The notes beneath the pieces are model-generated. The model saw nothing but the letters and a program-made list of their open reading frames with translations, did no database searches and was not told the origin of the DNA. A DNA stretch of 64,000 bases from the human T2T-CHM13v2.0 reference genome, Homo sapiens. This document shows, piece by piece, positions 43,102 to 61,665 of this stretch. Where the stretch lies: NCBI RefSeq assembly GCF_009914755.1, contig NC_060947.1. One strand, given 5' to 3'. Every line of letters starts with the position of its first letter. Positions within the stretch are counted from its first letter, which is position 1. The translations under genes were made by a program, and so were the position numbers.

Positions 43102-43540
43102 ATGAATATAATGTTTCTTGGGCTAATTAATCCGCCTTGAGAACAGCTAGGCTAAAACTTCCAGGTCTCCCACCCTGGGCCACTCAAGCCAGGATCGCGA
43201 CGTGAGCCCGGGGTGAGCCGAGGGGCATCCCGGGCCGAGGTCACTCGAACCGAAGTTATGAGGCGCGGGCCGGCAACCGGAAGTGGTCCAGGGAGAGTTG
43301 TACGAGATTCGGGGGCTGTGACTTGGAAATAAAACAAAATAAAATAAAACCTTAACTGTTTTGGGACTGACTTTCAAAAGAGCGTCCCCCTGGCTCAAGA
43401 GGCCGGCGTTCGCGGAGATGTCGTCTTAAAGGGCTGTCCCCCAAGCGTGTAGGCCGCGCACGGGTCTCCTTAGCGGGCGGGCAAAATGGGCGCCGGTACT
43501 CGGGAGGCGCCTGCCCAGGCGCCCGGGCGCCGCTCACAGA
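43102..43540 (-). other. Probable shared non-coding exon 1 of MTCP1/CMC4 (5' end approximate)
   Basis: Strong minus-strand donor CAT|gtgagtaa at 43102/43101 at the edge of the CpG island; a shared first exon is established knowledge for this locus. Confidence 0.6.
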
Positions 43541-44460
43541 GTACGTCCGCCTGCGGCCCCAGAGCGCCGCCTCCCTGCCGCCCCCGCCGCCCGGCCTGAC
43601 GCCCGGACCGCGGCCGGCCACCGCCCTCCGCCCCGACGGCCACGCCTGCCCCAAACCGCGCGGGCGTTTCCCAGGTGCTGCTGGGCGGGCCCCGCCCCCG
43701 TGCCCCAAGGCCCGCCCCCGCGCGCCAGCCGCGCGCCCGCTGCCCCCTCCTCGCCCCCACAGCCCCGCCCCCACAGCCCCGCCCGCTCCCTAAGCCCCGC
43801 CCCCTAGGAACCCGCGCGCCGAAGGCCAGGCCTGGGCGGAGCGCACAGCGCTGGGCGCTGGGGAGGCTGCGCCGCAGCACCCGGTTGGTCAGGACCAAGT
43901 GGGCCCGAGGCGGACGTGAGAAGGGTCGGGCCAAGATGGCGGTGCAGGTGGTGCAGGCGGTGCAGGCGGTTCATCTCGAGTCTGACGCTTTCCTCGTTTG
44001 TCTCAACCACGCTCTGAGCACAGAGAAGGAGGAAGTAATGGGGCTGTGCATAGGGGAGGTGAGTAGGTCTGTTAGCCTGGATGGAACCCTGCTGAGCAGT
44101 CCCAGTGTGTCCCCGGGGTGGGTGCCGGCAGCTCCCAGGGCTGCGGAGGCCACAGGCATCCTCGATTTAGGTCCTTGGACACCCTTTACATAGCTCTGTC
44201 GCGGGGAGCCCCGTTTCTTCTGGCCGCCTGACACTTGTTTAGTCTCCTGCGAGCCCCCGGCGGTCTGTACAGGCCCCGGGAGCCTTGCCCTTTCTCCTGT
44301 AGCCTGGGGCTTCTCTTTAGATCTGCGCTTTTCGCCCGGTTGACCAAAACTGCAAGGCAGGTCAGAAAGACACTGGAGTATAATGAGGATGTCCGGGTAT
44401 TACGACGCAGCAGCTGACCACAGTTAGAGCCCCTTGCCTCGCCTCGAGTCTTCTGTCTAG
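43180..44460. promoter_or_regulatory. CpG island / bidirectional promoter MTCP1-CMC4 <> BRCC3
   Basis: Very high GC and CpG density; many GC boxes (CCCCGCCCC); ETS ACCGGAAGTG at 43276-43285; YY1-like CAAGATGGCGG over the BRCC3 ATG; head-to-head genes. Confidence 0.92.
43936..44058 (+). CDS. BRCC3: BRCC3 (BRCC36, JAMM/MPN+ K63 deubiquitinase) coding exon 1
   Basis: aagATGG Kozak; MAVQVVQAVQAVHLESDAFLVCLNHALSTEKEEVMGLCIGE|gtgagt. Confidence 0.97.
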
Positions 44461-51107: not shown

Positions 51108-53451
51108 GTAAGTATCATGGGGTTGCAATGTTTATTGTTTTCAGAAATTAATATCATGTTTCCTTTTCCATTACATAGGGTATGGTTATTTTAAACCAAA
51201 ATTTGACTGTCCTTTAGCAGATGTCATTATTTTGATTTATTTTATTATGTATTAAAAGTAATGATTTATGTCATATTGATTGTTTTTAATAAGTCTGTCA
51301 GTTGATATAAAAAAATTAAACTGTTAACTGAAAATTGCTGATTGCTGAATATCATTACTGTCCAGGACACTCCCATTCTGCAGACTTAAAGATATTAAAG
51401 GGTAAAATTTGCAAAATTGATTTTTACAGTTGCTGTTTACGTATAGTCCATTGGGGCTCTCAATATACATCTTTACCCTTCTAATCAGTGTAATGTAACT
51501 AAATTGCTTTCTTTCTACCTTTACCCCTTTTTGAGAATCATGGTGGGTTTTTTTGTCCGTATCTGCGTCTCCAGAAAGAAGGAGAATAACTTGGGGAGAG
51601 TGAACTAATATTCATGAGCACTTAACTATGTGCTAATGGTTTACAGATGTTTTCTTCTCTAATCCTTGTGGCAACCTGTGAGTTAGAGATCTTACCCCCA
51701 TTGTACAGAAGGGTAAACAAAGACTCACATGAATTAAGTAAGTTGCAGAGCTGAGGTTAGAACCCAGGTCTGACTCCCAAGTCTGCTCTTCCCACTGTGC
51801 TACTACTAGTCATATGGGTTTGAGTTGATAGCAAGTTATATATTCATCTACACTGTGATACGAATGGCAAAAAGTCATCAGTGGTACAGTCCCAGACTTT
51901 AATGAAACACGAGTGGTCCTAAGAAATACAGTATTAGTTCTCAGTCTTGGGTGGGTGAGGATGTTTCTCAGAATCACCTGAGAAAGCTTTCATAAAATGT
52001 GCCTGCCCCAAATTAATCTTTCCTAGACCCTAACTCAAACCTACTGTAACAACCTCTGGGAGTAGGTGTTAGGTGGGGATATTGTTGAACGCCCCTAGTT
52101 AAATACTGATTTAGAATAAGGGAGATGACAGATCTACCTTCTCCCAGATTTGCCAAACTTTAACATTTGGCAACACTTGCTGTATCATTCTCTTATACAT
52201 ATATGTATATACGTGTGTGTGTCTGAAGATAATTTTTTCCTGAAGTATTAGATTAAGTTGCAGACATGGTACCTTTTACCCCTACTCTTCACTATGAATT
52301 TCCTAAACACAAAGAAATTCTCTTACATAACCATGATACATTTATAAAAATTGGGAAATTACCATTCATATAATAGTATTATTTAAATTACAGACCTTAT
52401 TCAGATTCTTTAATTGGTTCACTGATGTCCCAATAAAGTTGTTTTTATAACTATTAATATATTCCTGTAAAGCCTTAATGTCACTGAAAAAATTCAGTGG
52501 CTGATTTGTTTTCCTGTCATTGTCAACACTGAAATCAGATTGGCCTAAAATTTTTCCCATGGTAGTGCCATCAGCCACTAATGAAGAAAAGTTTGACACA
52601 TATATTACTGAACAATTATTTTCACTATAGTAATAAGTTACAATGGGAAATAAATACATAAAATTTGGTGGTAAAAAGAAATTCCCTACGAATTTAAGGA
52701 AAAATACCTTATAAGTATCTGAAGCAGAGCACCCAGAAAATTTCAGAGTTCAGAGAATAATTGAATTCTCTCAGGGGAGAAGATCTGAGCCATTAAACAA
52801 GAACCCAGGTAGGAGTTTGTAATGCAGCAGTAACAGTAGTGGGAACATTTCAATCTTTATAGCAGTCAGAAAAAAAAAAAGGGATACTGCAGAAAGTAAC
52901 TGAAAAAAATCAACTCTAAATTATGAAATGATTAAGAAGCCATGTGCAAATAATTCAAGACAAAATAGATTTGGAGTCCAGAGTATAGATATCCTACCTG
53001 AACAAGAATTAGAATATGCAATAAGGGCTATGTGTAAAGAAAGTTTAGAGAGTTACCATAGCATGAGGGTTGGGAATACCAGCTTTGATTTAGTTGGAGA
53101 CTAGGTCTGTGTTAGCATCTTGTTTCAGTCACTTACTAGTTGAGAAAATATTTTAACTTGTCTATGCCTCTGTAGTTTCCTCTCTGTCAGAAAAGAACAT
53201 AGTCTCAGAGTTAAGAGTAGTATATGAAAATCATGTATACAACACCTTGTCCCACACTTACCATGGTAGCTGTTCACCTATAAAATGAGCAACAAAAGAA
53301 AGACACCAAAGCATTTATTTGTAAAACTCTCAAGGACATGGAGAGAGTATATGAAATATCTATATTGAAGGGCAGACAATATTCAAAGGATTAACAATGA
53401 GGACACATCAGGTCTCTCATTTGAGATCCTGAGATCTCAAAAATATTTACA

Positions 53452-53752
53452 GGCCGGGCATAGTGGCTCACGCCTGTAATCCCAGCACTTTGGCAGGATG
53501 AGGTAGGCAGATCACTTGAGGTCAGGAGTTGGAGACCCACCTGGCCAACAAGGTGAAACCCTGTTTCTATTAAAAATGTAAAAATTAGACAGGCATGGTG
53601 GCGGGTGCCTGTAATCCAAGTTACTGGGGAGGCTAAGGCAGGAGAATTCACTTGAACCTGGGAGATGGAGGTTGCAGTGAGCTGAGATTGTACCACTGCA
53701 CTCCAGCCAGGGTGACAGAGCGAGATTCTGTCTCAAAAAAAAAAAAAAAAAA
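53452..53752 (+). mobile_element. AluS
   Basis: Full Alu with poly(A). Confidence 0.92.
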
Positions 53753-56700
53753 GTACAGTAATGAAACTATGGGTACAACTAAAGAAAAATAATTGCCCAA
53801 CTGAGCTGGCATTCACACTCATCTCCAAACAGCCTTTTAAGAAGTAGTACCTTATAAATGTATGCAATTATGATTTGTCAATTAAAACTAGTATTTAAGA
53901 AAGTAAATAAATGGGAAAAAAAGAATTGAGTCTAACAGAGGCACTGTATTGCATTACAAACCTCAGAAAAAGTGAGCAATGAATAAAAACTAACTACCTT
54001 TAACAGGAAAAGAATTCCAAGCTGTGGTAAAGAGTGACAAGTGAGAAAGTGAAATCTTTTTTTCTGTTAAAGGAAAGGTATAATTTTAGTTGGTGAGGGA
54101 GAGTGACGTGACCATTTCAGTGCTTTTTATGATAAGGTAATTAGTGCAATTAGGTTAAGTTCCAGTGGGCTAGGTAACACTGTTTTGAACATAATTTAAA
54201 GGGATCATTCCATAAAACGATTCTTCAGGAAATTTACTGGATACCTGTATGGAATAATAAGGTCATGGCTCCTGCTGTCCTGGACCTTAATGATTTTGTT
54301 GGGGGGAAAACAGAGTACTAAAGGGAAAACAATGAGTAACATGATAAAGAAGAAATGAGATGTAGTCCATATAGAACATTTGTACTTGTAAATATAAACA
54401 GGGGAAGCATCTATAAAAATAAAAGCCTTGGGATTAGGAAAAAGGAAGAATAAGATGTTACTAAGACAAGCTGCAAACCTAAAGACTTGAACAAAAACTA
54501 ACAAACTAGGTTAAGCTGTATGGGGAAAATAAAGAGCAGCCATCATCAGCTAAAGGGTAAGTGAGAGAAGATAGGTCATTTATTCTATAACAAAAGGCAT
54601 AGTAACTAAGGAAACTCTAATGAGGCTGAATTATGTGCCCTACCGTAGCAACATACATGTACACAGGATAAAGTTTTACATGTAAGGAATGGAAACTAGT
54701 TGAGATAGAAGAACTTGATAACCCACTTTCAAAATTTATTCATTCCTTCAAAAGAACATAAAGTGAGTTGGCCTTCGGTTGAGGTTGGCAGTGGAGCGTG
54801 GAGGGGACAGTGAACAAAAGCAAGGGTGAGGTAGGACAAGCACACACACAAAGACTTTAAAATTTCATCTTAAAAGAATTTTATTCTTACAGAAAAATTT
54901 CAAGAATAGTATGAAGAACCAGATGCAACAATTGTTAACCTTTGGTCGCATTTGCTTTATCATATTCTCCCTCCCTCTCCAACATACACACATGCACATG
55001 TGCACACATGCTATTTGAGAGTGAGTTGCAGACATGATGCTCCTTTACCTTTAAATACTTCATTGTGTATTTCTCAAGATCAAGGGTATTTATTTACATA
55101 ACCACAGTGCAATTGTCAAAATAAGCACATTTAATAAATACGATCATATTGTGCAAACTACACAGAACTTATTCACATTTTGCCAGTTAACTCAATATTG
55201 TCCTTTATGGCAGTTTTTTCTTTCCAATACAGGATCCAATCTCAGATCATGCATGGCATTTAGCCTTCATGTCACTTTAGTCTCCTTTCCTCTGGACCAG
55301 CTCCTTAGACTTTTTTTCCTCTTTCGTGACATAGACATTTTAGGAGATGGAATGTTGCTCCATTTGACTTTGTCTGCTATTTGCTTATGACTAGATTCAG
55401 GTTATGCACTTTTGGCATGTGGTGCTAGGCCTTTGTCAGCGTCTCCCATCTGGACGTGCGTGATTTCTCTGCCTCAAACTAACATTTTCATGCCACTGAT
55501 GAGGCAGAATTAACAAATGTGAGTCAAATGGGAAGAGGTGATAACAAGCCTCTTCTCAGCCTGTCCATTTGTTGAACAGATACCGAGGACTTGGCCATGC
55601 CAATTTGTAATAATATCTGCAAAGCCAATTCCAAAATTGGGAAGCTGTGCATGTTCCATGATATCTCTGATCAGTATGCTCCTACTTTTTGCAAAGGCAA
55701 ACCCTTTCATTTTCAAACCTCTGAATTCCCCGTTTCTGCCTTCATGTTCAGCAATGTTATCTAACATTGCTTCCCACTTTAATAGAGAAAACAGGAACCA
55801 TTAGAAAGGAATTTCATCTGTTTCTCTTGATTCACCTACTTGTCACTGTGCCTCTCTTCCCCTTTTCCCTCCTATTTTATCTTTGCCTCCTACATTCTCA
55901 AGAACCTTACTCTGTTTTTTATGCCCCTCTTTTTTACACATCTACATACTTTGCCACTATACTGGATTCTTCCCATTATTATTTCTTTCAACAAATTTGA
56001 GTGTCTACCATGTGTCAAAGTGCTGAAGATAATGAATGAGAGAAACACGGTCCCTGCCTTCATGGAGCTTTCAAATATGTTCATACTTCACATTGAGGAA
56101 AACAACAAAAACACTCTAGTTTGGCTTCTATTAAAGTGGATCTTGCTAGAGTCATCAATGGTATCCATGTTGAAAATCTAGTGACCATTTTAAAATCCCA
56201 TCTTATAAAACATTGACACTGTCAGGTACTCTCTACTTATTGAAATACTTCCCAGCTAATCACGAGGAGTGTGTGGCTTTTGGGGGAAGAAACTAAGCTG
56301 AGGGTCAGAGCTGAAATACCCAGTCCAAAACCAGATGGCTAGTAAGCAGCAGACCCAGTATCTGAATTGAGTTTATATGAGTCTAGAGCCTAGGATTTCT
56401 ACAGCATCTCACTTTGATTGAACAAGTGGGAATCCTATTCATGGAAGTAGGAAGTGGAGGAGGAAACATAGGTTTGGTGATGGGGAAAGAGATATAGTTC
56501 AGTTACATCATACACACACTTAACGTACCTGAATTTTACCTATACAGTACACGTTTGCAAAAGAAAAATAAGTGATTTAAATGCTGCAGACTATTTCATA
56601 AATCTCCCAAGACTTGGTACTGTTTGTAGAAGTTATTCTTTTATATTCATTTTATTTTACTTGTAAATGCTTATCCAAGGAGACATGTACCTGTAGTTAT

Positions 56701-56756
56701 GTTCCTCATTTTAAGATCTGCTCAATTTTTTTTTCTAGCACTACGGTGAGTTCTAA

Positions 56757-57375
<619 letters not shown>

Positions 57376-58744
57376 AAATTTTTTTTTAAAAAGTAGGATA
57401 TGAGAAATAGTCAATTATTTTCAGATATATAAGAACATTTCCAATGGCCTCCACATGTAATTTTGGAAAGATAGGCTGGATTCAGAGCAGGTCTGCCACT
57501 TCACAGGAACATTTTCACCACGTAGCTCCTAAAAGGAAATGAGAAGGCCTATTTCTGAAATGTTTCCATGTCCCCTTGGGGGGAAAACAGTTTCAGTTCA
57601 TTCCTCCACTGACATTAAAAGAGAATGTCTATTTCAGGCAAGAATAATAAAATGGGCTTTTAATACTACATATGGTTATTTCATCATATTTCTTAGGAAT
57701 GGTGCTGTGTAATATCACTGTGCACAAAATCACAGATTCTTCAAGAAAACTGTTTCTTAAATACCTGTGTAATTGCCCACAAAGGGGCCCAGTGCATGTG
57801 ACATTCAGTCTAACAGCTTAACCAGCTCTCTGCCGTACTTGCCATACAGAAAAGCTGAAACTGCTGGTTTCCAGGTCAGTTTATGTGGTCCAATCCGTAA
57901 CCTGCTTTCTTCCTGAAAGACCCAACCAGAGGAAACTGACCAAAAGAGCATCTCTCGTGTACCAGGCCTGAGTTCAACAGAAAACAGATAAGCGACCTCC
58001 AACTTTTTATCCCTGGGTCTGAAGTCACATCCTGAAGAGTTTGGTTACACCAGTAATGAAACATACATGGTTTCCTGTTGCTTTCCTTTCTTAATTTCCG
58101 GTGAGGATAATGTCACCAGAAAGTTCCATCTCCCTCTCTCAGTAACAGGGAGAAGTGGAACAGGCAATTGGATCTCAAGCAGGGTCTTGGCTTGAGCCTT
58201 GGGGCGGTTTACAGAGTTTCTGTCTTGACCACGGAGATCTTTACCAATTTGCTGGGTAGGTCCATGGCTGCCTGGTTCCCCCAGGACTGCTTTGCCATGA
58301 CAGCTACCTGAATGACTCCGAGGAACTGCTCTTTGGTGATTTCAGGAGGTTCTTTCCCTTTAAGGGTTCTTCAGACAAAATGTCTGAAGCGCTCTCGATA
58401 TGAGTTTTGGTAGCGGCCAGCCTGGGTCTGGGAGCAGAGTGATAGGACGTACCCTGCCTGGTCATGCCCAAGGGATTCTGATTATTCATCTGCAACACAC
58501 CTTGGAAATCATGAACGTCCCGTCTGTGGTCACAGCTGTCTGTCCAGTGCTGGCTGACGTCCAAGCTAACAGCCGCCCCATTGGGAAACTTCATGCTGAT
58601 CACAGTGGCATCTGCATCCTTTAAGGAGGCCATATCTGGTCAGAAGGCATGTCCGAGAGAAAGCACAGTGTCCAGAGTGGCTTTTAACAGCAACATGCAT
58701 GCGATGTCCACATTGTGCACCCAGTCTTGTAGAGAACCCCACCT

Positions 58745-59030
58745 GCCCGCCTGCCCTCGCTTCCTCCCTCCGTCCCTCCCTCCCTTCCTTGCCCAGGCTG
58801 GAGTGCGATGGCGCGCCCTCTCAGGTAACTGCAACCGCCGTCTCCTGGGCTCAAGCGATTCTCCTGTCTTAGCTTCCCGAGTAGCTGGGATCACAGGCAC
58901 GCGCCACCACGCCTGGCTAATTTTTTTTTTTTTGCATTTTGAGTAGAGAGGGAGTTTCACCACATTGGCCAGGCTGGTCTCAAACTCATGACCTCAGGTG
59001 GTCTGCCCGCCTTGGCCTCCCAAAGCGCTG
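58745..59030 (-). mobile_element. 5'-truncated Alu inserted in the oxidoreductase pseudogene, with a CT-rich simple-repeat tail
   Basis: gcccaggctggagtgc...cctcccaaagcgctg; lacks the first ~30 Alu nt. Confidence 0.88.
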
Positions 59031-59034
59031 CTCA

Positions 59035-59050
59035 CAGCGCCATCTGGTGG
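59035..59050 (-). promoter_or_regulatory. Near-consensus CTCF motif
   Basis: Reverse complement CCACCAGATGGCGCTG. Confidence 0.65.
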
Positions 59051-59849
59051 ATCCTTTTGTAAGCTTCCTCAAAGCAGGACTGGGCAGTGGCCTATTCAAA
59101 GCACGCAGCCTCGTGCAAAGCACCCCCATCCCTGTTCTCGAATTACCCTAGTGTTGGCCAAATAATCGGCTCTGAAGGTTCACTCCACTTTATATAGCTG
59201 ATCGTCAAAAACATACAGCAAGCAGCAGCCGTTCTTATCCATTATATCCCAAAGATGGCCAGGCTAATGCTCCGATGTCATTAAAGCATCTCATACCTCT
59301 GTTGGAGGCTTCTGAAATGTCTTTGGCTGTTCTGAGGGCACCAATGGGCTTTTCACTCAGAGAGAAGGAAAGGCTGAGAGGTGGCCAGCAGAGGTAGATA
59401 GCGTTGTGTTTGGACGGAAGCAGAATGCCTGAGAGAATTTCTGAGTGGATGCTGAGGGGCAAGGGCGAGAGGTGCAGGGTCCGAGCCTGCTGAGATGAGA
59501 ATAAGTGTCCATAGGATGACAGCTCCTCGCGGGCAGCGGTGGCTGGAGTGGGTCCCTCAGCGCTCAGGTGGTCTCCCAAGGGGTAGACAATGCTCAGAGG
59601 GGGTACATCCATTAGGACGGGATGCCAGAACGATCCCACCCGGAGAAGCTTCGCCGGCGAGAAGAATACGCCTTCCCACAGGGGAAGATGGGGGTACGAG
59701 GGACTCCCCCGGAGGGGTGACCGAGGCCAGTCTGAGCCTCTGGGGGCCCAAGGTTGGGAACTCTTGGTAGCCAGTGGACGGGCAGGGTCGGCTCGCTTTG
59801 GCAGGCGCCAGGGTGGAGGTACTGAGCTTACGTGAGACATACTCTCAGG

Positions 59850-60240
59850 AGCATTGTTTTAAGACAACCAAGTTGAACTGTCAGACGGCAACTTAGATCT
59901 ATGGTTCTGGAGTTCTGGGACTAGAGTTTGTTGGGCAAGAGTTGGGAGTGGCTGGTGTAGATTTGAAGCCACAAAACTAGATAAAATCCCCCAAAGGGTA
60001 AGGGTAGAGAGATAAAAGGACTGAACACTGAGCCTGGGCCACACCAATATTTGGAGAGTGGGAAGATGAGAAGGATCCAGCAACAGAGACAGGAAGTTAG
60101 AGACGAGTAGGAAGAGTGGGAACGTGAGGCAAAGTGAAGATAGTGTTTCAAGAAGGGAGTGATCAGCTGAGATCAGGTAAATTGAAGACCAAGAATAAAT
60201 CATTGGTGACCTTGACAAAAAGCAGTTTGGGTAACATGAT
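59850..60240. mobile_element. L2 fragment
   Basis: agatctatggttctggagttctgggac ... tcattggtgaccttgacaaaaagcagttt. Confidence 0.65.
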
Positions 60241-60747
60241 GGGCACAGTAGTTGTTACCAGTGGTTGTAGATAAAATTGAATGGAAGTAATGCTTATGAA
60301 GTACCTTTGATGTGTGTTAAAAATTTTGCAATTTAAAAATTACAAAAACCCTATGAGAGAAGCGATGATGTTTATTCTCATTTAACTGATAAGGAAATAG
60401 GCTTAACAGTACCAAGAATTTTACTTTTAGCAATTTACTTTAATTCTCTGTACTGCTATAGACCGTTTTACAATGCTATGTTCTTTTAGCAATATTTTCA
60501 GCCAATTTCCTTTGTACTCATTGCTGGGTACTGTTTGGTCTCAGTCTTTACTTAGGAGGACATTGGGGAGAAGTCAAAATCTAGATCAAAAAGGTATACA
60601 CACAAAGAATGTTGAAGAACAGATTGCCAAAATAAGTGAATGTAAGCCATTGGGCAAAACTGTAATCTGCAGTGTTTCATTGTGACACCTGATCTTTTGT
60701 ATCCTTTATAAACAATGGTCTGAAGACTAAATTTAGCCTCTGTTTAG

Positions 60748-61055
<308 letters not shown>

Positions 61056-61665
61056 GTTTTTGGCATTTAATATTTTAATCCTTTCTAATGTTGTTATTTG
61101 GTGCCTGTTTATTATCTCTTTTCAAAAGTTCAGTAACCATATCAAGCAGAATTAAGAAAAAAATCAAGTAACCATATAGGAGGGGTTTCTACTCTCTGGA
61201 ATGTTGAATTTATATCACAACCACTTCCATACAATGGCTTCCTGTAAGATTTTCCTCTGTAATTGTTCCACACTTCTATTCTTTAGTAGCAAGCCTAATA
61301 AATATGTTCACTTTCCTAGAAGCTGTCCATCAAAAGGCTTTTTCTAGGAAATACTTTCTCTCCTTTTTAATTTCTCTTTCTATTACCACATTCCATAGCA
61401 GAGCTACTCTTGGGCTAGGCAGGCTAGAGTTATTAATAAGTTTTATTATTTAATGGCAGACTTTCGATAGTATTACCCTAACCTAGCAAAACATTTTTAC
61501 TTTGATATTGTCCTTAGGATATATTCCTGTTTTGCCTGTACAATCTGAATCCTAGGAAGATTATATGTTGCTGTTATCTTTAAATCTTTAAGTCAATCTT
61601 TAAATCAATAAGCTGTGAGACACAGCTTATTGACAGAAGATTTTTAAATTTTCATTTATTTTCAG

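What the first reader, a model, noticed from the sequence alone, without database searches (positions are those of the whole stretch)
58209..59270. Fossil myo-inositol dehydrogenase-like (Gfo/Idh/MocA) gene nested antisense in BRCC3 intron 5; candidate unitary pseudogene
Seen: minus-strand translation gives family motifs in the correct order. These are a Rossmann beta1-like ISLAIFGI (59268-59245), a beta2-like LLYVFDD, GVLCTRL (59126-59106; cf. GKHVLCEKP), VHNVD (cf. catalytic HDxD), DADATVISMKFPNGAAVSLDVS..CDHRRDVHDFQG (cf. DxDxaxxxlxFxnGa...yDqrxEvxGxkG), and a C-terminal RYQNSYRERFRHFV..LKGKEPPEITKEQFLGVIQVAVMAKQSW, ending at TAA 58209-58211. Lesions: TGA at 59180-59182, 58640-58642 and 58371-58373; frameshifts near 59245, 59090 and 58447; internal deletions; and an Alu at 58745-59030. 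Established: the human Gfo/Idh/MocA-type proteins I know (BLVRA, DHDH, GFOD1/2) are not IolG-like. Inference: this is a lost vertebrate inositol/sugar dehydrogenase-like gene, not a retrocopy of a living human gene, which would mark a lineage-specific metabolic gene loss. I cannot confirm whether it is already annotated.
Basis: partly seen in the sequence, partly recalled or inferred. Interest (0 to 1): 0.9.

Follow-up and report, generated by a model that had tools for sequence, protein, structure and literature searches.

The report
Dead retrocopy of a lost dehydrogenase gene
The sequence really is the wreck of an inositol-dehydrogenase-like gene, but it is an intron-less retrocopy of a gene whose true, also broken, remains lie on chromosome 1 beside TP73, apparently the well-studied TP73-AS1 locus.

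Summary
Observation confirmed. The minus strand at 58209-59270 carries a decayed IolG-like Gfo/Idh/MocA coding sequence. It is 52-69% identical to vertebrate "myo-inositol 2-dehydrogenase-like" proteins (tblastn E 9e-30 and 1.5e-21).

No intact human copy turned up, but this is not the ancestral locus. The human genome holds three relics:
- a multi-exon relic on chr1 (T2T 3,249,969-3,258,343, minus), tail-to-tail with TP73, by inference TP73-AS1;
- this chrX copy;
- an older intron-less copy on chr7.

The chrX copy spans about 56726-59826. It carries the chr1 gene's 5'UTR, its coding exons and about 1.5 kb of 3'UTR, and ends in a short A-run. Five of six parental introns can be assessed and all five are missing, four at exactly the chr1 splice sites. 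It is therefore a processed pseudogene that landed antisense in BRCC3 intron 5. A tree dates this probably to an early primate. K2P distance to chr1 is about 0.25.

The copy itself is ordinary. The by-product is more interesting: a lncRNA locus described as "recently evolved" looks like the fossil of an ancient vertebrate gene.

The parts
56726..59826 (-). Whole processed pseudogene (retrocopy) of the chr1 IolG-like gene, including three later Alu insertions. Antisense in BRCC3 intron 5 (51108-61665).
   Evidence: Colinear blastn matches to chr1 exons and UTRs. Ends read.
56726..56734 (-). Residual A-run (A9, up to 3 of them possibly templated) exactly where homology to chr1 stops.
   Evidence: sequence comparison. 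No further chr1 match below 56732.
56735..58208 (-). 3'UTR-derived part. Matches chr1 3248736-3249968 at 72-82% identity. Interrupted by two Alus.
   Evidence: K2P 0.245-0.253.
56774..57072 (.). Alu inserted after retroposition. Absent at the matching chr1 site. 5.7% non-CpG divergence from the window's Alu consensus.
57090..57378 (.). Older Alu inserted after retroposition. 24.8% non-CpG divergence, the most diverged of the 22 copies measured.
58209..58357 (-). Exon G-derived coding end, with terminal TAA at 58209-58211.
   Evidence: F/G junction TTAAAG|GGAAAG exact. tblastn.
58358..58516 (-). Exon F-derived. Holds a 3-base insertion that gives TGA at 58371-58373, and a frameshift near 58447-58472.
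   Evidence: 84% identity to chr1 3250659-3250805.
58517..58635 (-). Exon E-derived (the DADATVISMKFPNGAAVSLDVSQH... stretch). The roughly 1-kb chr1 intron E/F with its 36-bp tandem array is absent.
58636..58744 (-). Exon D-derived (VHNVD...). TGA at 58640-58642.
   Evidence: D/E junction CCAG|ATATGG exact..
58745..58762 (-). Last bases of exon C, joined to exon D without the 141-nt chr1 intron, with an 8-nt near-duplicate at the join.
58763..59030 (-). 5'-truncated Alu with a degenerate purine-rich tail, inserted into exon C. 12.7% non-CpG divergence.
59031..59131 (-). Exon C-derived remnant (GVLCTRL...CFEEA...RIH) with a frameshift near 59090 and internal deletions. The deletion covering residues 268-299 of the colugo ortholog removes the B/C junction.
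59132..59494 (-). Exon B-derived: Ser/Pro-rich linker, Rossmann beta1 (ISLAIFGI) and beta2 (LLYVFDD). TGA at 59180-59182, two further stops and a frameshift near 59245.
59495..59510 (-). Last 16 nt of exon A, spliced exactly onto exon B (ATTCTCAT|CTCAGC). About 375 nt of exon A, including the ATG and about 66 codons, are deleted.
59513..59826 (-). 5'UTR-derived part. 77.6% identical to chr1 3258523-3258827, upstream of the chr1 ATG.

Best explanation
Window 56726-59826 (minus strand) is a processed pseudogene.

Shown: it is an intron-less copy of the full mRNA (5'UTR, coding sequence, 3'UTR) of a vertebrate IolG-like Gfo/Idh/MocA oxidoreductase gene. The intron-bearing locus of that gene lies on chr1p36 beside TP73.

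Inferred: a spliced, polyadenylated transcript was reverse-transcribed and inserted, by the usual LINE-1 route, antisense into BRCC3 intron 5. This most likely happened on the early primate lineage.

The copy has since decayed without function. It now has at least 5 in-frame stops and at least 4 frameshifts. The start codon and three internal stretches are deleted, and it has three Alu insertions.

The chr1 parent later died too. It survives only as a transcribed relic, by inference the lncRNA gene TP73-AS1. Humans therefore have no intact member of this gene family.
For: (1) Three human loci match the colugo ortholog P0137:
- chr1 3249969-3258343 (minus), in 7 separated exon pieces;
- chrX, this window, contiguous;
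- chr7 82905344-82906696, contiguous (extent).

(2) The chrX copy is colinear at the DNA level with the chr1 exons and both UTRs, at 72-90% identity.

(3) Intron loss was checked at 5 of 6 junctions.
- A/B, D/E, E/F and F/G join exactly where the chr1 exon ends lie. chr1 shows a GT donor at all four, and an AG acceptor at A/B, D/E and F/G.
- The 141-nt C/D intron is absent, with an 8-nt near-duplicate at the join.
- B/C lies in a deletion.

(4) Homology ends in an A9 run.

(5) The P53 DNA-binding-domain exons of TP73 lie at chr1 3233539-3238761 (plus), about 10 kb from the relic's 3' end and tail-to-tail with it.
- Passages of PMC4924754 place TP73-AS1 antisense to the TP73 3'UTR.
- A 36-bp x 27 array (976 bp) in chr1 intron E/F fits the 1-kb tandem-repeat "sponge region" described in PMC5913670.

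(6) In the tree, the chrX copy groups with human chr1 plus P0003 at 96/94 support. With the chr7 copy and P0002 left out, support is 93/95. This group sits inside a placental clade at 99/99.

(7) The chr1 lesions that can be compared are not shared.
- chr1 has TAA where chrX has GAA in exon G.
- The chrX TGA at 58371 comes from its own 3-base insertion.

(8) The intact orthologs are IolG-like: TIGR04380 at 177-192 bits, and best PDB hits are inositol dehydrogenases.
Against: - No target-site duplication can be shown. The best flank match is 8 bases, and 356 of 1000 shuffles reach it.
- The A-run is short, and up to 3 of its 9 A's could be templated.
- No canonical AATAAA is evident by eye upstream of the end.
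- The AU test does not firmly reject a position of the chrX copy outside the colugo-Tupaia-primate group (p 0.057), so the dating is soft.
- Equating the chr1 relic with the annotated TP73-AS1 exons rests on position, literature passages and bird proteins labelled "T73AS protein". I did not see an annotation of chr1.
- Synteny of the intact orthologs with TP73 in other vertebrates could not be tested. No vertebrate genomes are held.
Confidence: 0.93

Rival explanations
1. One reading: a unitary pseudogene. An ancestral vertebrate gene nested antisense in BRCC3 intron 5 died in place.
For: No intact human paralog was found. The family is old and widespread in vertebrates.
Against: All 5 of 5 assessable parental introns are missing. 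The parent's UTRs and a terminal A-run are present. An intron-bearing relic exists on chr1. The copy branches inside placentals next to the human chr1 sequence, not at the base of the family.
Confidence: 0.02
2. A retrogene that worked for a time. The chrX copy was expressed and selected after insertion, and decayed only later.
For: It was copied from the canonical coding splice form and lacks the chr1 lesions.
Against: - In conserved columns of residues 385-557, the chrX lineage changed at 22 and the chr1 lineage at 12. For residues 225-270 the counts are 7 and 1.
- Differences from chr1 are nearly even over codon positions: 0.232, 0.183 and 0.232 in 164 codons.
- The start codon region is deleted.
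- It lies antisense inside an intron, and I looked for no promoter.
Confidence: 0.05
3. A variant of the main reading: the parent was already a non-coding transcript when it was copied, so the chrX copy is a retrocopy of a lncRNA rather than of an mRNA.
For: The near-uniform spread of differences over codon positions shows little constraint on either copy since the split.
Against: - None of the chr1 lesions that can be compared is present in chrX.
- The chr1 lineage changed about half as often as chrX at conserved residues.
- The copy includes exon F, whose acceptor in present-day human chr1 is not AG.
- The copy lacks the retained tandem-repeat intron that passages of PMC5913670 describe for the main TP73-AS1 isoform.
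Confidence: 0.2

Closest known systems
Processed pseudogenes whose parent gene was later lost ("orphan" retrocopies; the term is recalled, not taken from a call)
   Same: Intron-less. Carries the parent's UTRs and a 3' A-run. Lies on another chromosome, antisense in a host intron. Riddled with stops, frameshifts and Alus.
   Different: The parent is not a living human gene. It is itself a broken, transcribed relic, so pseudogene pipelines that start from human proteins would not find it. The RefSeq table supplied with the finding lists nothing here.
Bacterial IolG, myo-inositol 2-dehydrogenase (TIGR04380; PDB 3euw, 4hkt, 3ezy)
   Same: The best-matching family, both for the relic and for its intact vertebrate orthologs, whose match runs end to end over model positions 3-329 of 330 in two of the three scanned.
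   Different: - Orthologs score 177-192 bits against an equivalog cut-off of 355.
- They carry an extra N-terminal region of about 210 residues with a C-x2-C...H-x5-H motif.
- In the colugo protein, the Lys of the EKP motif reads Arg, and the Asp four residues before the active-site His reads Asn (alignment). The roles of these residues are recalled from B. subtilis IolG.
TP73-AS1 (KIAA0495, PDAM), a human lncRNA gene at 1p36
   Same: By position (tail-to-tail with TP73), by its tandem-repeat region (against the passages), and by the label "T73AS protein" on bird orthologs, the chr1 parent relic appears to be this gene.
   Different: Passages of PMC5913670 describe TP73-AS1 as recently evolved, with sequence orthologs only in apes and monkeys. 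Here its exons encode 63-84% identity to a colugo protein from a family that reaches back to sharks.
Human Gfo/Idh/MocA genes DHDH, GFOD1/2 and BLVRA
   Same: Same superfamily fold (names recalled).
   Different: They are not the source. The genome search at E<=1e-3 returned only the three relic loci. A dihydrodiol dehydrogenase structure matches the colugo ortholog at only E 2e-7, against 1.6e-31 for an inositol dehydrogenase.

Membership tests
Processed pseudogene (retrocopy) | Parental introns are absent, with exon-exon joins at the parent's splice sites. | tested here: met
   5 of 6 junctions could be assessed and all 5 lack the intron. Four joins are exact; C/D has 8 extra bases. B/C is lost in a deletion.
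Processed pseudogene (retrocopy) | Contains the parent mRNA's untranslated regions. | tested here: met
   5'UTR at 59513-59820 and 3'UTR at 56732-58208 match chr1.
Processed pseudogene (retrocopy) | Poly(A) tract at the 3' end of homology. | tested here: met
   An A9 run at 56726-56734 where homology ends. It is short and partly could be templated.
Processed pseudogene (retrocopy) | Target-site duplications flank the insert. | tested here: inconclusive
   The best match is 8 bases, reached by 356 of 1000 shuffles.
Processed pseudogene (retrocopy) | An intron-bearing source locus exists elsewhere in the genome. | tested here: met
   chr1 3249969-3258343, 7 exon pieces with GT/AG flanks.
Unitary pseudogene at the ancestral locus | Retains the exon-intron structure of the functional orthologs at the syntenic position. 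| tested here: not met
   The chrX copy is intron-less. Synteny in other species is not testable with these tools.
Gfo/Idh/MocA oxidoreductase superfamily | C-terminal alpha/beta domain (PF02894, PF22725). | tested here: met
   The relic alone scores 22.1 bits on PF22725, under the 27-bit cut-off. It is 52-69% identical to proteins that pass with 58-70 bits.
Gfo/Idh/MocA oxidoreductase superfamily | N-terminal NAD-binding Rossmann domain (PF01408). | tested here: inconclusive
   The relic's N-terminal piece gives no Pfam or NCBIfam hit. It matches orthologs at E 6e-7. Of the seven different orthologs scanned, PF01408 passes its 24-bit cut-off in P0006, P0137 and P0168 (28.6-45.3 bits), falls short in P0002, P0005 and P0184 (19.5-20.6 bits), and does not hit P0008.
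IolG, inositol 2-dehydrogenase (TIGR04380 equivalog) | Scores over the curated equivalog cut-off of 355 bits. | tested here: not met
   The relic pieces score 24.3 and 16.6 bits. Intact orthologs score 177-192 bits. IolG-like, but not an equivalog.
IolG, inositol 2-dehydrogenase (TIGR04380 equivalog) | NAD-dependent oxidation of myo-inositol. | not testable with these tools
   In these searches I found no biochemical work on any vertebrate member. The names in the databases are automatic.

The most novel reading that the evidence does not exclude
TP73-AS1 is a much-studied cancer lncRNA that passages of PMC5913670 describe as recently evolved. This reading makes it the transcribed corpse of an ancient vertebrate gene.

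- The gene is an IolG-like oxidoreductase with an N-terminal zinc-finger-like region. It is found from sharks to monotremes, marsupials and a few placentals.
- The chrX retrocopy would then be a snapshot of that gene's canonical coding mRNA from an early primate. It was taken before the chr1 stops and frameshifts arose.
- That gives a way to date when the gene became a lncRNA.

The probability given is for the biology being true. Whether it is already in print elsewhere is less sure. My searches found no such statement.
Probability: 0.8. Interest if true: 0.55.

Novelty: new member of a known kind. Interest (0 to 1): 0.4.

Why it matters
The chrX sequence itself is an ordinary dead retrocopy with no sign of function. 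It matters in three ways.

- **The human gene loss is real.** Humans lack a conserved vertebrate IolG-like gene. Among the 120 rows listed in each, only three placental species (colugo, a Hipposideros bat, Tupaia) show a long open prediction.
- **The true remains are at 1p36.** There they appear to be the lncRNA gene TP73-AS1. This changes how the "young" age and sequence conservation of that RNA should be read.
- **The retrocopy is a dated outgroup.** It helps reconstruct what the parent mRNA looked like before it decayed.

Tried and rejected
- **Fragments alone against Pfam and NCBIfam:** 6 of 7 gave nothing in each library.
- **Word-indexed protein search** with a 67-aa piece, looking for longer proteins: no hit.
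- **Target-site duplication:** not supported.
- **Weak tblastn hit** of the kiwi protein P0008 (residues 47-213) to window 43440-43976, at E 3.7e-4 with low-complexity filtering off. I dismissed it as Ser/Pro/Ala-rich linker matching the GC-rich BRCC3/MTCP1 promoter region.
- **The 207-codon stop-free frame at 59235-59858 (minus):** it is not the frame that matches the orthologs. I took it as chance.
- **Codon-position analysis of exon B:** the linker aligns poorly (58% nucleotide identity when anchored on the protein), so I did not use it.
- **Atlas structure search** of the 111-aa ORF: the model is poor (pLDDT 0.35) and no match is usable. The feature search pointed to GFO_IDH_MocA_C only as a lead.
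- **Bacterial origin or contamination:** rejected, because vertebrate relatives are 52-69% identical while bacterial-type hits are about 30% or less.
- **Literature:**
  - No paper held both "unitary pseudogene" and "inositol dehydrogenase", the BRCC3/MTCP1/pseudogene/intron set, the Gfo Idh MocA/pseudogene/vertebrates set, or "T73AS".
  - TP73-AS1 with "unitary pseudogene" or with "pseudogeniz" (listing only) gave only generic mentions.
  - Two papers on lncRNAs derived from lost genes (PMC5577775, PMC10195156) name neither TP73 nor KIAA0495 in the main text or in the supplements held.
Full report
**1. What is in the sequence**

The minus strand of 58209-59270 reads as the first-stage reader said.
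- The listed peptides are present.
- TGA stops lie at 59180-59182, 58640-58642 and 58371-58373, and a terminal TAA at 58209-58211.
- Frame changes lie near 58447-58472 and 59090. The one near 59245 I read from the sequence and ORF frames.
- An Alu body at 58786-59030 matches 21 other copies in the window.

Taken alone, the fragments are weak evidence.
- Only 1 of 7 hit Pfam (PF22725, E 0.1), and 1 of 7 hit NCBIfam (TIGR04380 IolG, E 0.0026).
- Read through the TGAs as X, two colinear pieces hit the IolG model at positions 174-258 (E 1.3e-5) and 277-326 (E 2.8e-3). The N-terminal piece hit nothing.
- The nearest solved structures are myo-inositol dehydrogenases.

**2. The family**

An exhaustive search of 1.84 billion proteins gave 65 hits at E<=1e-3. 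Among them are full-length proteins 52-58% identical, fragments up to 69%, and shorter ones higher still. These match the window at E 9e-30, 1.5e-21 and 6e-7.

Searches with the catshark and colugo members returned 235 and 180 relatives, of which 120 were listed each time.
- They come from sharks, rays, ray-finned fishes, lungfish, amphibians, turtles, crocodiles, birds, monotremes and marsupials.
- Among placentals only colugo, a Hipposideros bat and Tupaia appear.
- The names are automatic: "myo-inositol 2-dehydrogenase-like", "StrI-like", "uncharacterized". Many bird entries are called "T73AS protein".

The intact proteins are about 560 residues long.
- A region of about 210 residues comes first, with a C-x2-C...H-x5-H motif. 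It shows only sub-threshold similarity to AKAP95 and ZNF280-type zinc fingers.
- A Gfo/Idh/MocA domain follows. It matches IolG end to end at 177-192 bits, under the 355-bit equivalog cut-off.

So "IolG-like" is right, and "IolG" is not shown.

**3. Where the human copies are**

A six-frame search of the window's own genome with the colugo protein found three loci and nothing else at E<=1e-3. All 27 candidates of the first look were scored.
- **chr1 3249969-3258343 (minus):** seven separate pieces covering residues 1-557 in order, at 40-85% identity. It has frameshifts in exons B and C, four stops in exon C and two in exon G.
- **chrX:** the window copy, contiguous.
- **chr7 82905344-82906696 (plus):** contiguous, 31-38% identical, with many stops.

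**4. Why the window copy is a retrocopy**

At the DNA level the window matches chr1 colinearly:
- 5'UTR: 59513-59820, 77.6% identity;
- exon B: 59131-59241 and 59299-59406;
- exon D: 58633-58745;
- exon E: 58527-58646, 85%;
- exon F: 58357-58505, 84%;
- exon G plus 3'UTR: 57793-58359, then 57401-57759 and 56732-56783.

The exons are joined with the chr1 introns removed.
- A/B, D/E, E/F and F/G join exactly at the chr1 exon ends. chr1 shows a GT donor at all four, and an AG acceptor at A/B, D/E and F/G.
- The 141-nt C/D intron is also missing, with 8 extra bases at the join.
- The sixth junction, B/C, lies in a deletion of the chrX copy.

Homology stops at an A9 run at 56726-56734. No target-site duplication can be shown.

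Two Alus in the 3'UTR part and one in exon C are absent from the matching chr1 positions, so they came later. About 375 bases of exon A, including the ATG, are deleted.

**5. The parent locus**

The P53-domain exons of TP73 lie at chr1 3233539-3238761 on the plus strand. That is about 10 kb from the relic's 3' end, and the two are tail-to-tail.

Passages of PMC4924754 place TP73-AS1 antisense to the TP73 3'UTR at 1p36. Passages of PMC5913670 describe a 1-kb tandem-repeat region in TP73-AS1. They also say its sequence orthologs are found in apes and monkeys but not in mouse, rat, cow or chicken.

In chr1 intron E/F there is a 36-bp x 27.2 array of 976 bp. Together with the bird label "T73AS protein", this makes it likely that the chr1 relic is TP73-AS1. 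I saw no annotation of chr1, so this step is inference.

**6. When it happened**

- A protein tree of 22 rows over the 284 columns that the chrX copy fills puts it with human chr1 plus an unnamed fragment (P0003), at support 96/94. This group lies inside a placental clade at 99/99.
- Without the chr7 copy and P0002, support is 93/95. The AU test gives p 0.057 against a tree that places the copy outside the colugo-Tupaia-primate group. A primate-lineage origin is therefore favoured but not proven.
- K2P distance between chrX and chr1 is 0.245-0.261 in the UTRs and 0.155-0.299 in the coding exons.
- With recalled neutral rates of 1-2.2e-9 per site per year, this gives very roughly 55-120 million years. 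With the tree, the lower part of that range is more likely.
- The Alus in the copy show 5.7%, 12.7% and 24.8% non-CpG divergence from the window's Alu consensus, which fits an old insert.

**7. State of the parent at that time**

- The chr1 lesions that can be compared are not in the chrX copy, and the chrX lesions are not in chr1.
- In conserved columns of residues 385-557 there are 10 states derived in both copies, 22 changes on chrX only and 12 on chr1 only.
- Differences are almost even over codon positions: 0.232, 0.183 and 0.232 in 164 codons.

I read this as follows. The copy was made from an intact, canonical coding mRNA. The parent lost constraint not very long afterwards. The alternative, that the parent was already non-coding, keeps about 0.2.

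**8. Verdict**

The more interesting result lies outside the window. The human remains of this ancient gene appear to be the TP73-AS1 locus. I found no statement of that in the papers searched.

Three things could not be checked here: the chrX site in other species, the synteny of intact orthologs, and GENCODE annotation.

Noticed in passing
L011/L012 (T2T chr1:3,248,736-3,258,827, minus strand): Intron-bearing, broken relic of the same IolG-like gene, tail-to-tail with TP73, by inference the lncRNA gene TP73-AS1. It has frameshifts in exons B and C, 4 stops in exon C, 2 stops in exon G, a 9-residue in-frame deletion that removes the last His of the N-terminal Cys/His motif, and no AG in front of exon F.
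   Followed up: partly
L013 (T2T chr7:82,905,344-82,906,696, plus strand; 3'UTR-like match to 82,907,908): A second intron-less copy of the same gene, much more decayed (31-38% identity to colugo, at least 17 stops). It has its own Alu and a stretch matching the 3'UTR-derived part of the chrX copy. It sits unresolved inside the placental clade on a very long branch.
   Followed up: partly
L011 7815-8790 (chr1:3,250,815-3,251,790) and L011 8843-8915: A 36-bp x 27.2 tandem array in the intron between exons E and F, which fits the published 1-kb miR-941 "sponge region". Separately, a 36-bp x 2 duplication inside exon E repeats the peptide DVSQHCTDSCDQ. The chrX copy has one unit and no array.
   Followed up: partly
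proteins P0137, P0168, P0184 and the lists: Among the 120 rows listed in each search, only three placental species (colugo, a Hipposideros bat, Tupaia) show long open predictions. Monotremes, marsupials, birds, reptiles, amphibians and fishes are well represented. This suggests repeated loss within placentals.
   Followed up: no
proteins P0137 and P0006 (alignment; sequences): The vertebrate family departs from IolG at residues I recall as catalytic. EKP reads ERP in colugo. The Asp four residues before the His reads Asn in colugo and in two unnamed homologs (P0002, P0005) but Asp in catshark. The first glycine-rich loop is degenerate (FGVGxxS). It may be an altered enzyme or a non-enzyme.
   Followed up: no
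window 59235-59858, minus strand: A stop-free frame of 207 codons across the 5'UTR-derived and exon B-derived part of the retrocopy. It is in a different frame from the one that matches the orthologs, and I took it as chance.
   Followed up: partly
protein P0001 (109 aa) and the Atlas record: Public protein collections hold a predicted peptide identical to the relic's 58304-58639 ORF over at least 65 residues. So an automatic gene prediction has called this dead ORF somewhere. That is no evidence the peptide is made.
   Followed up: no
window 58868-58919, minus strand: A sub-threshold Rfam match to mir-1268 (47.7 bits against 83) inside the Alu. It is a feature of the Alu, not a separate gene.
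   Followed up: no
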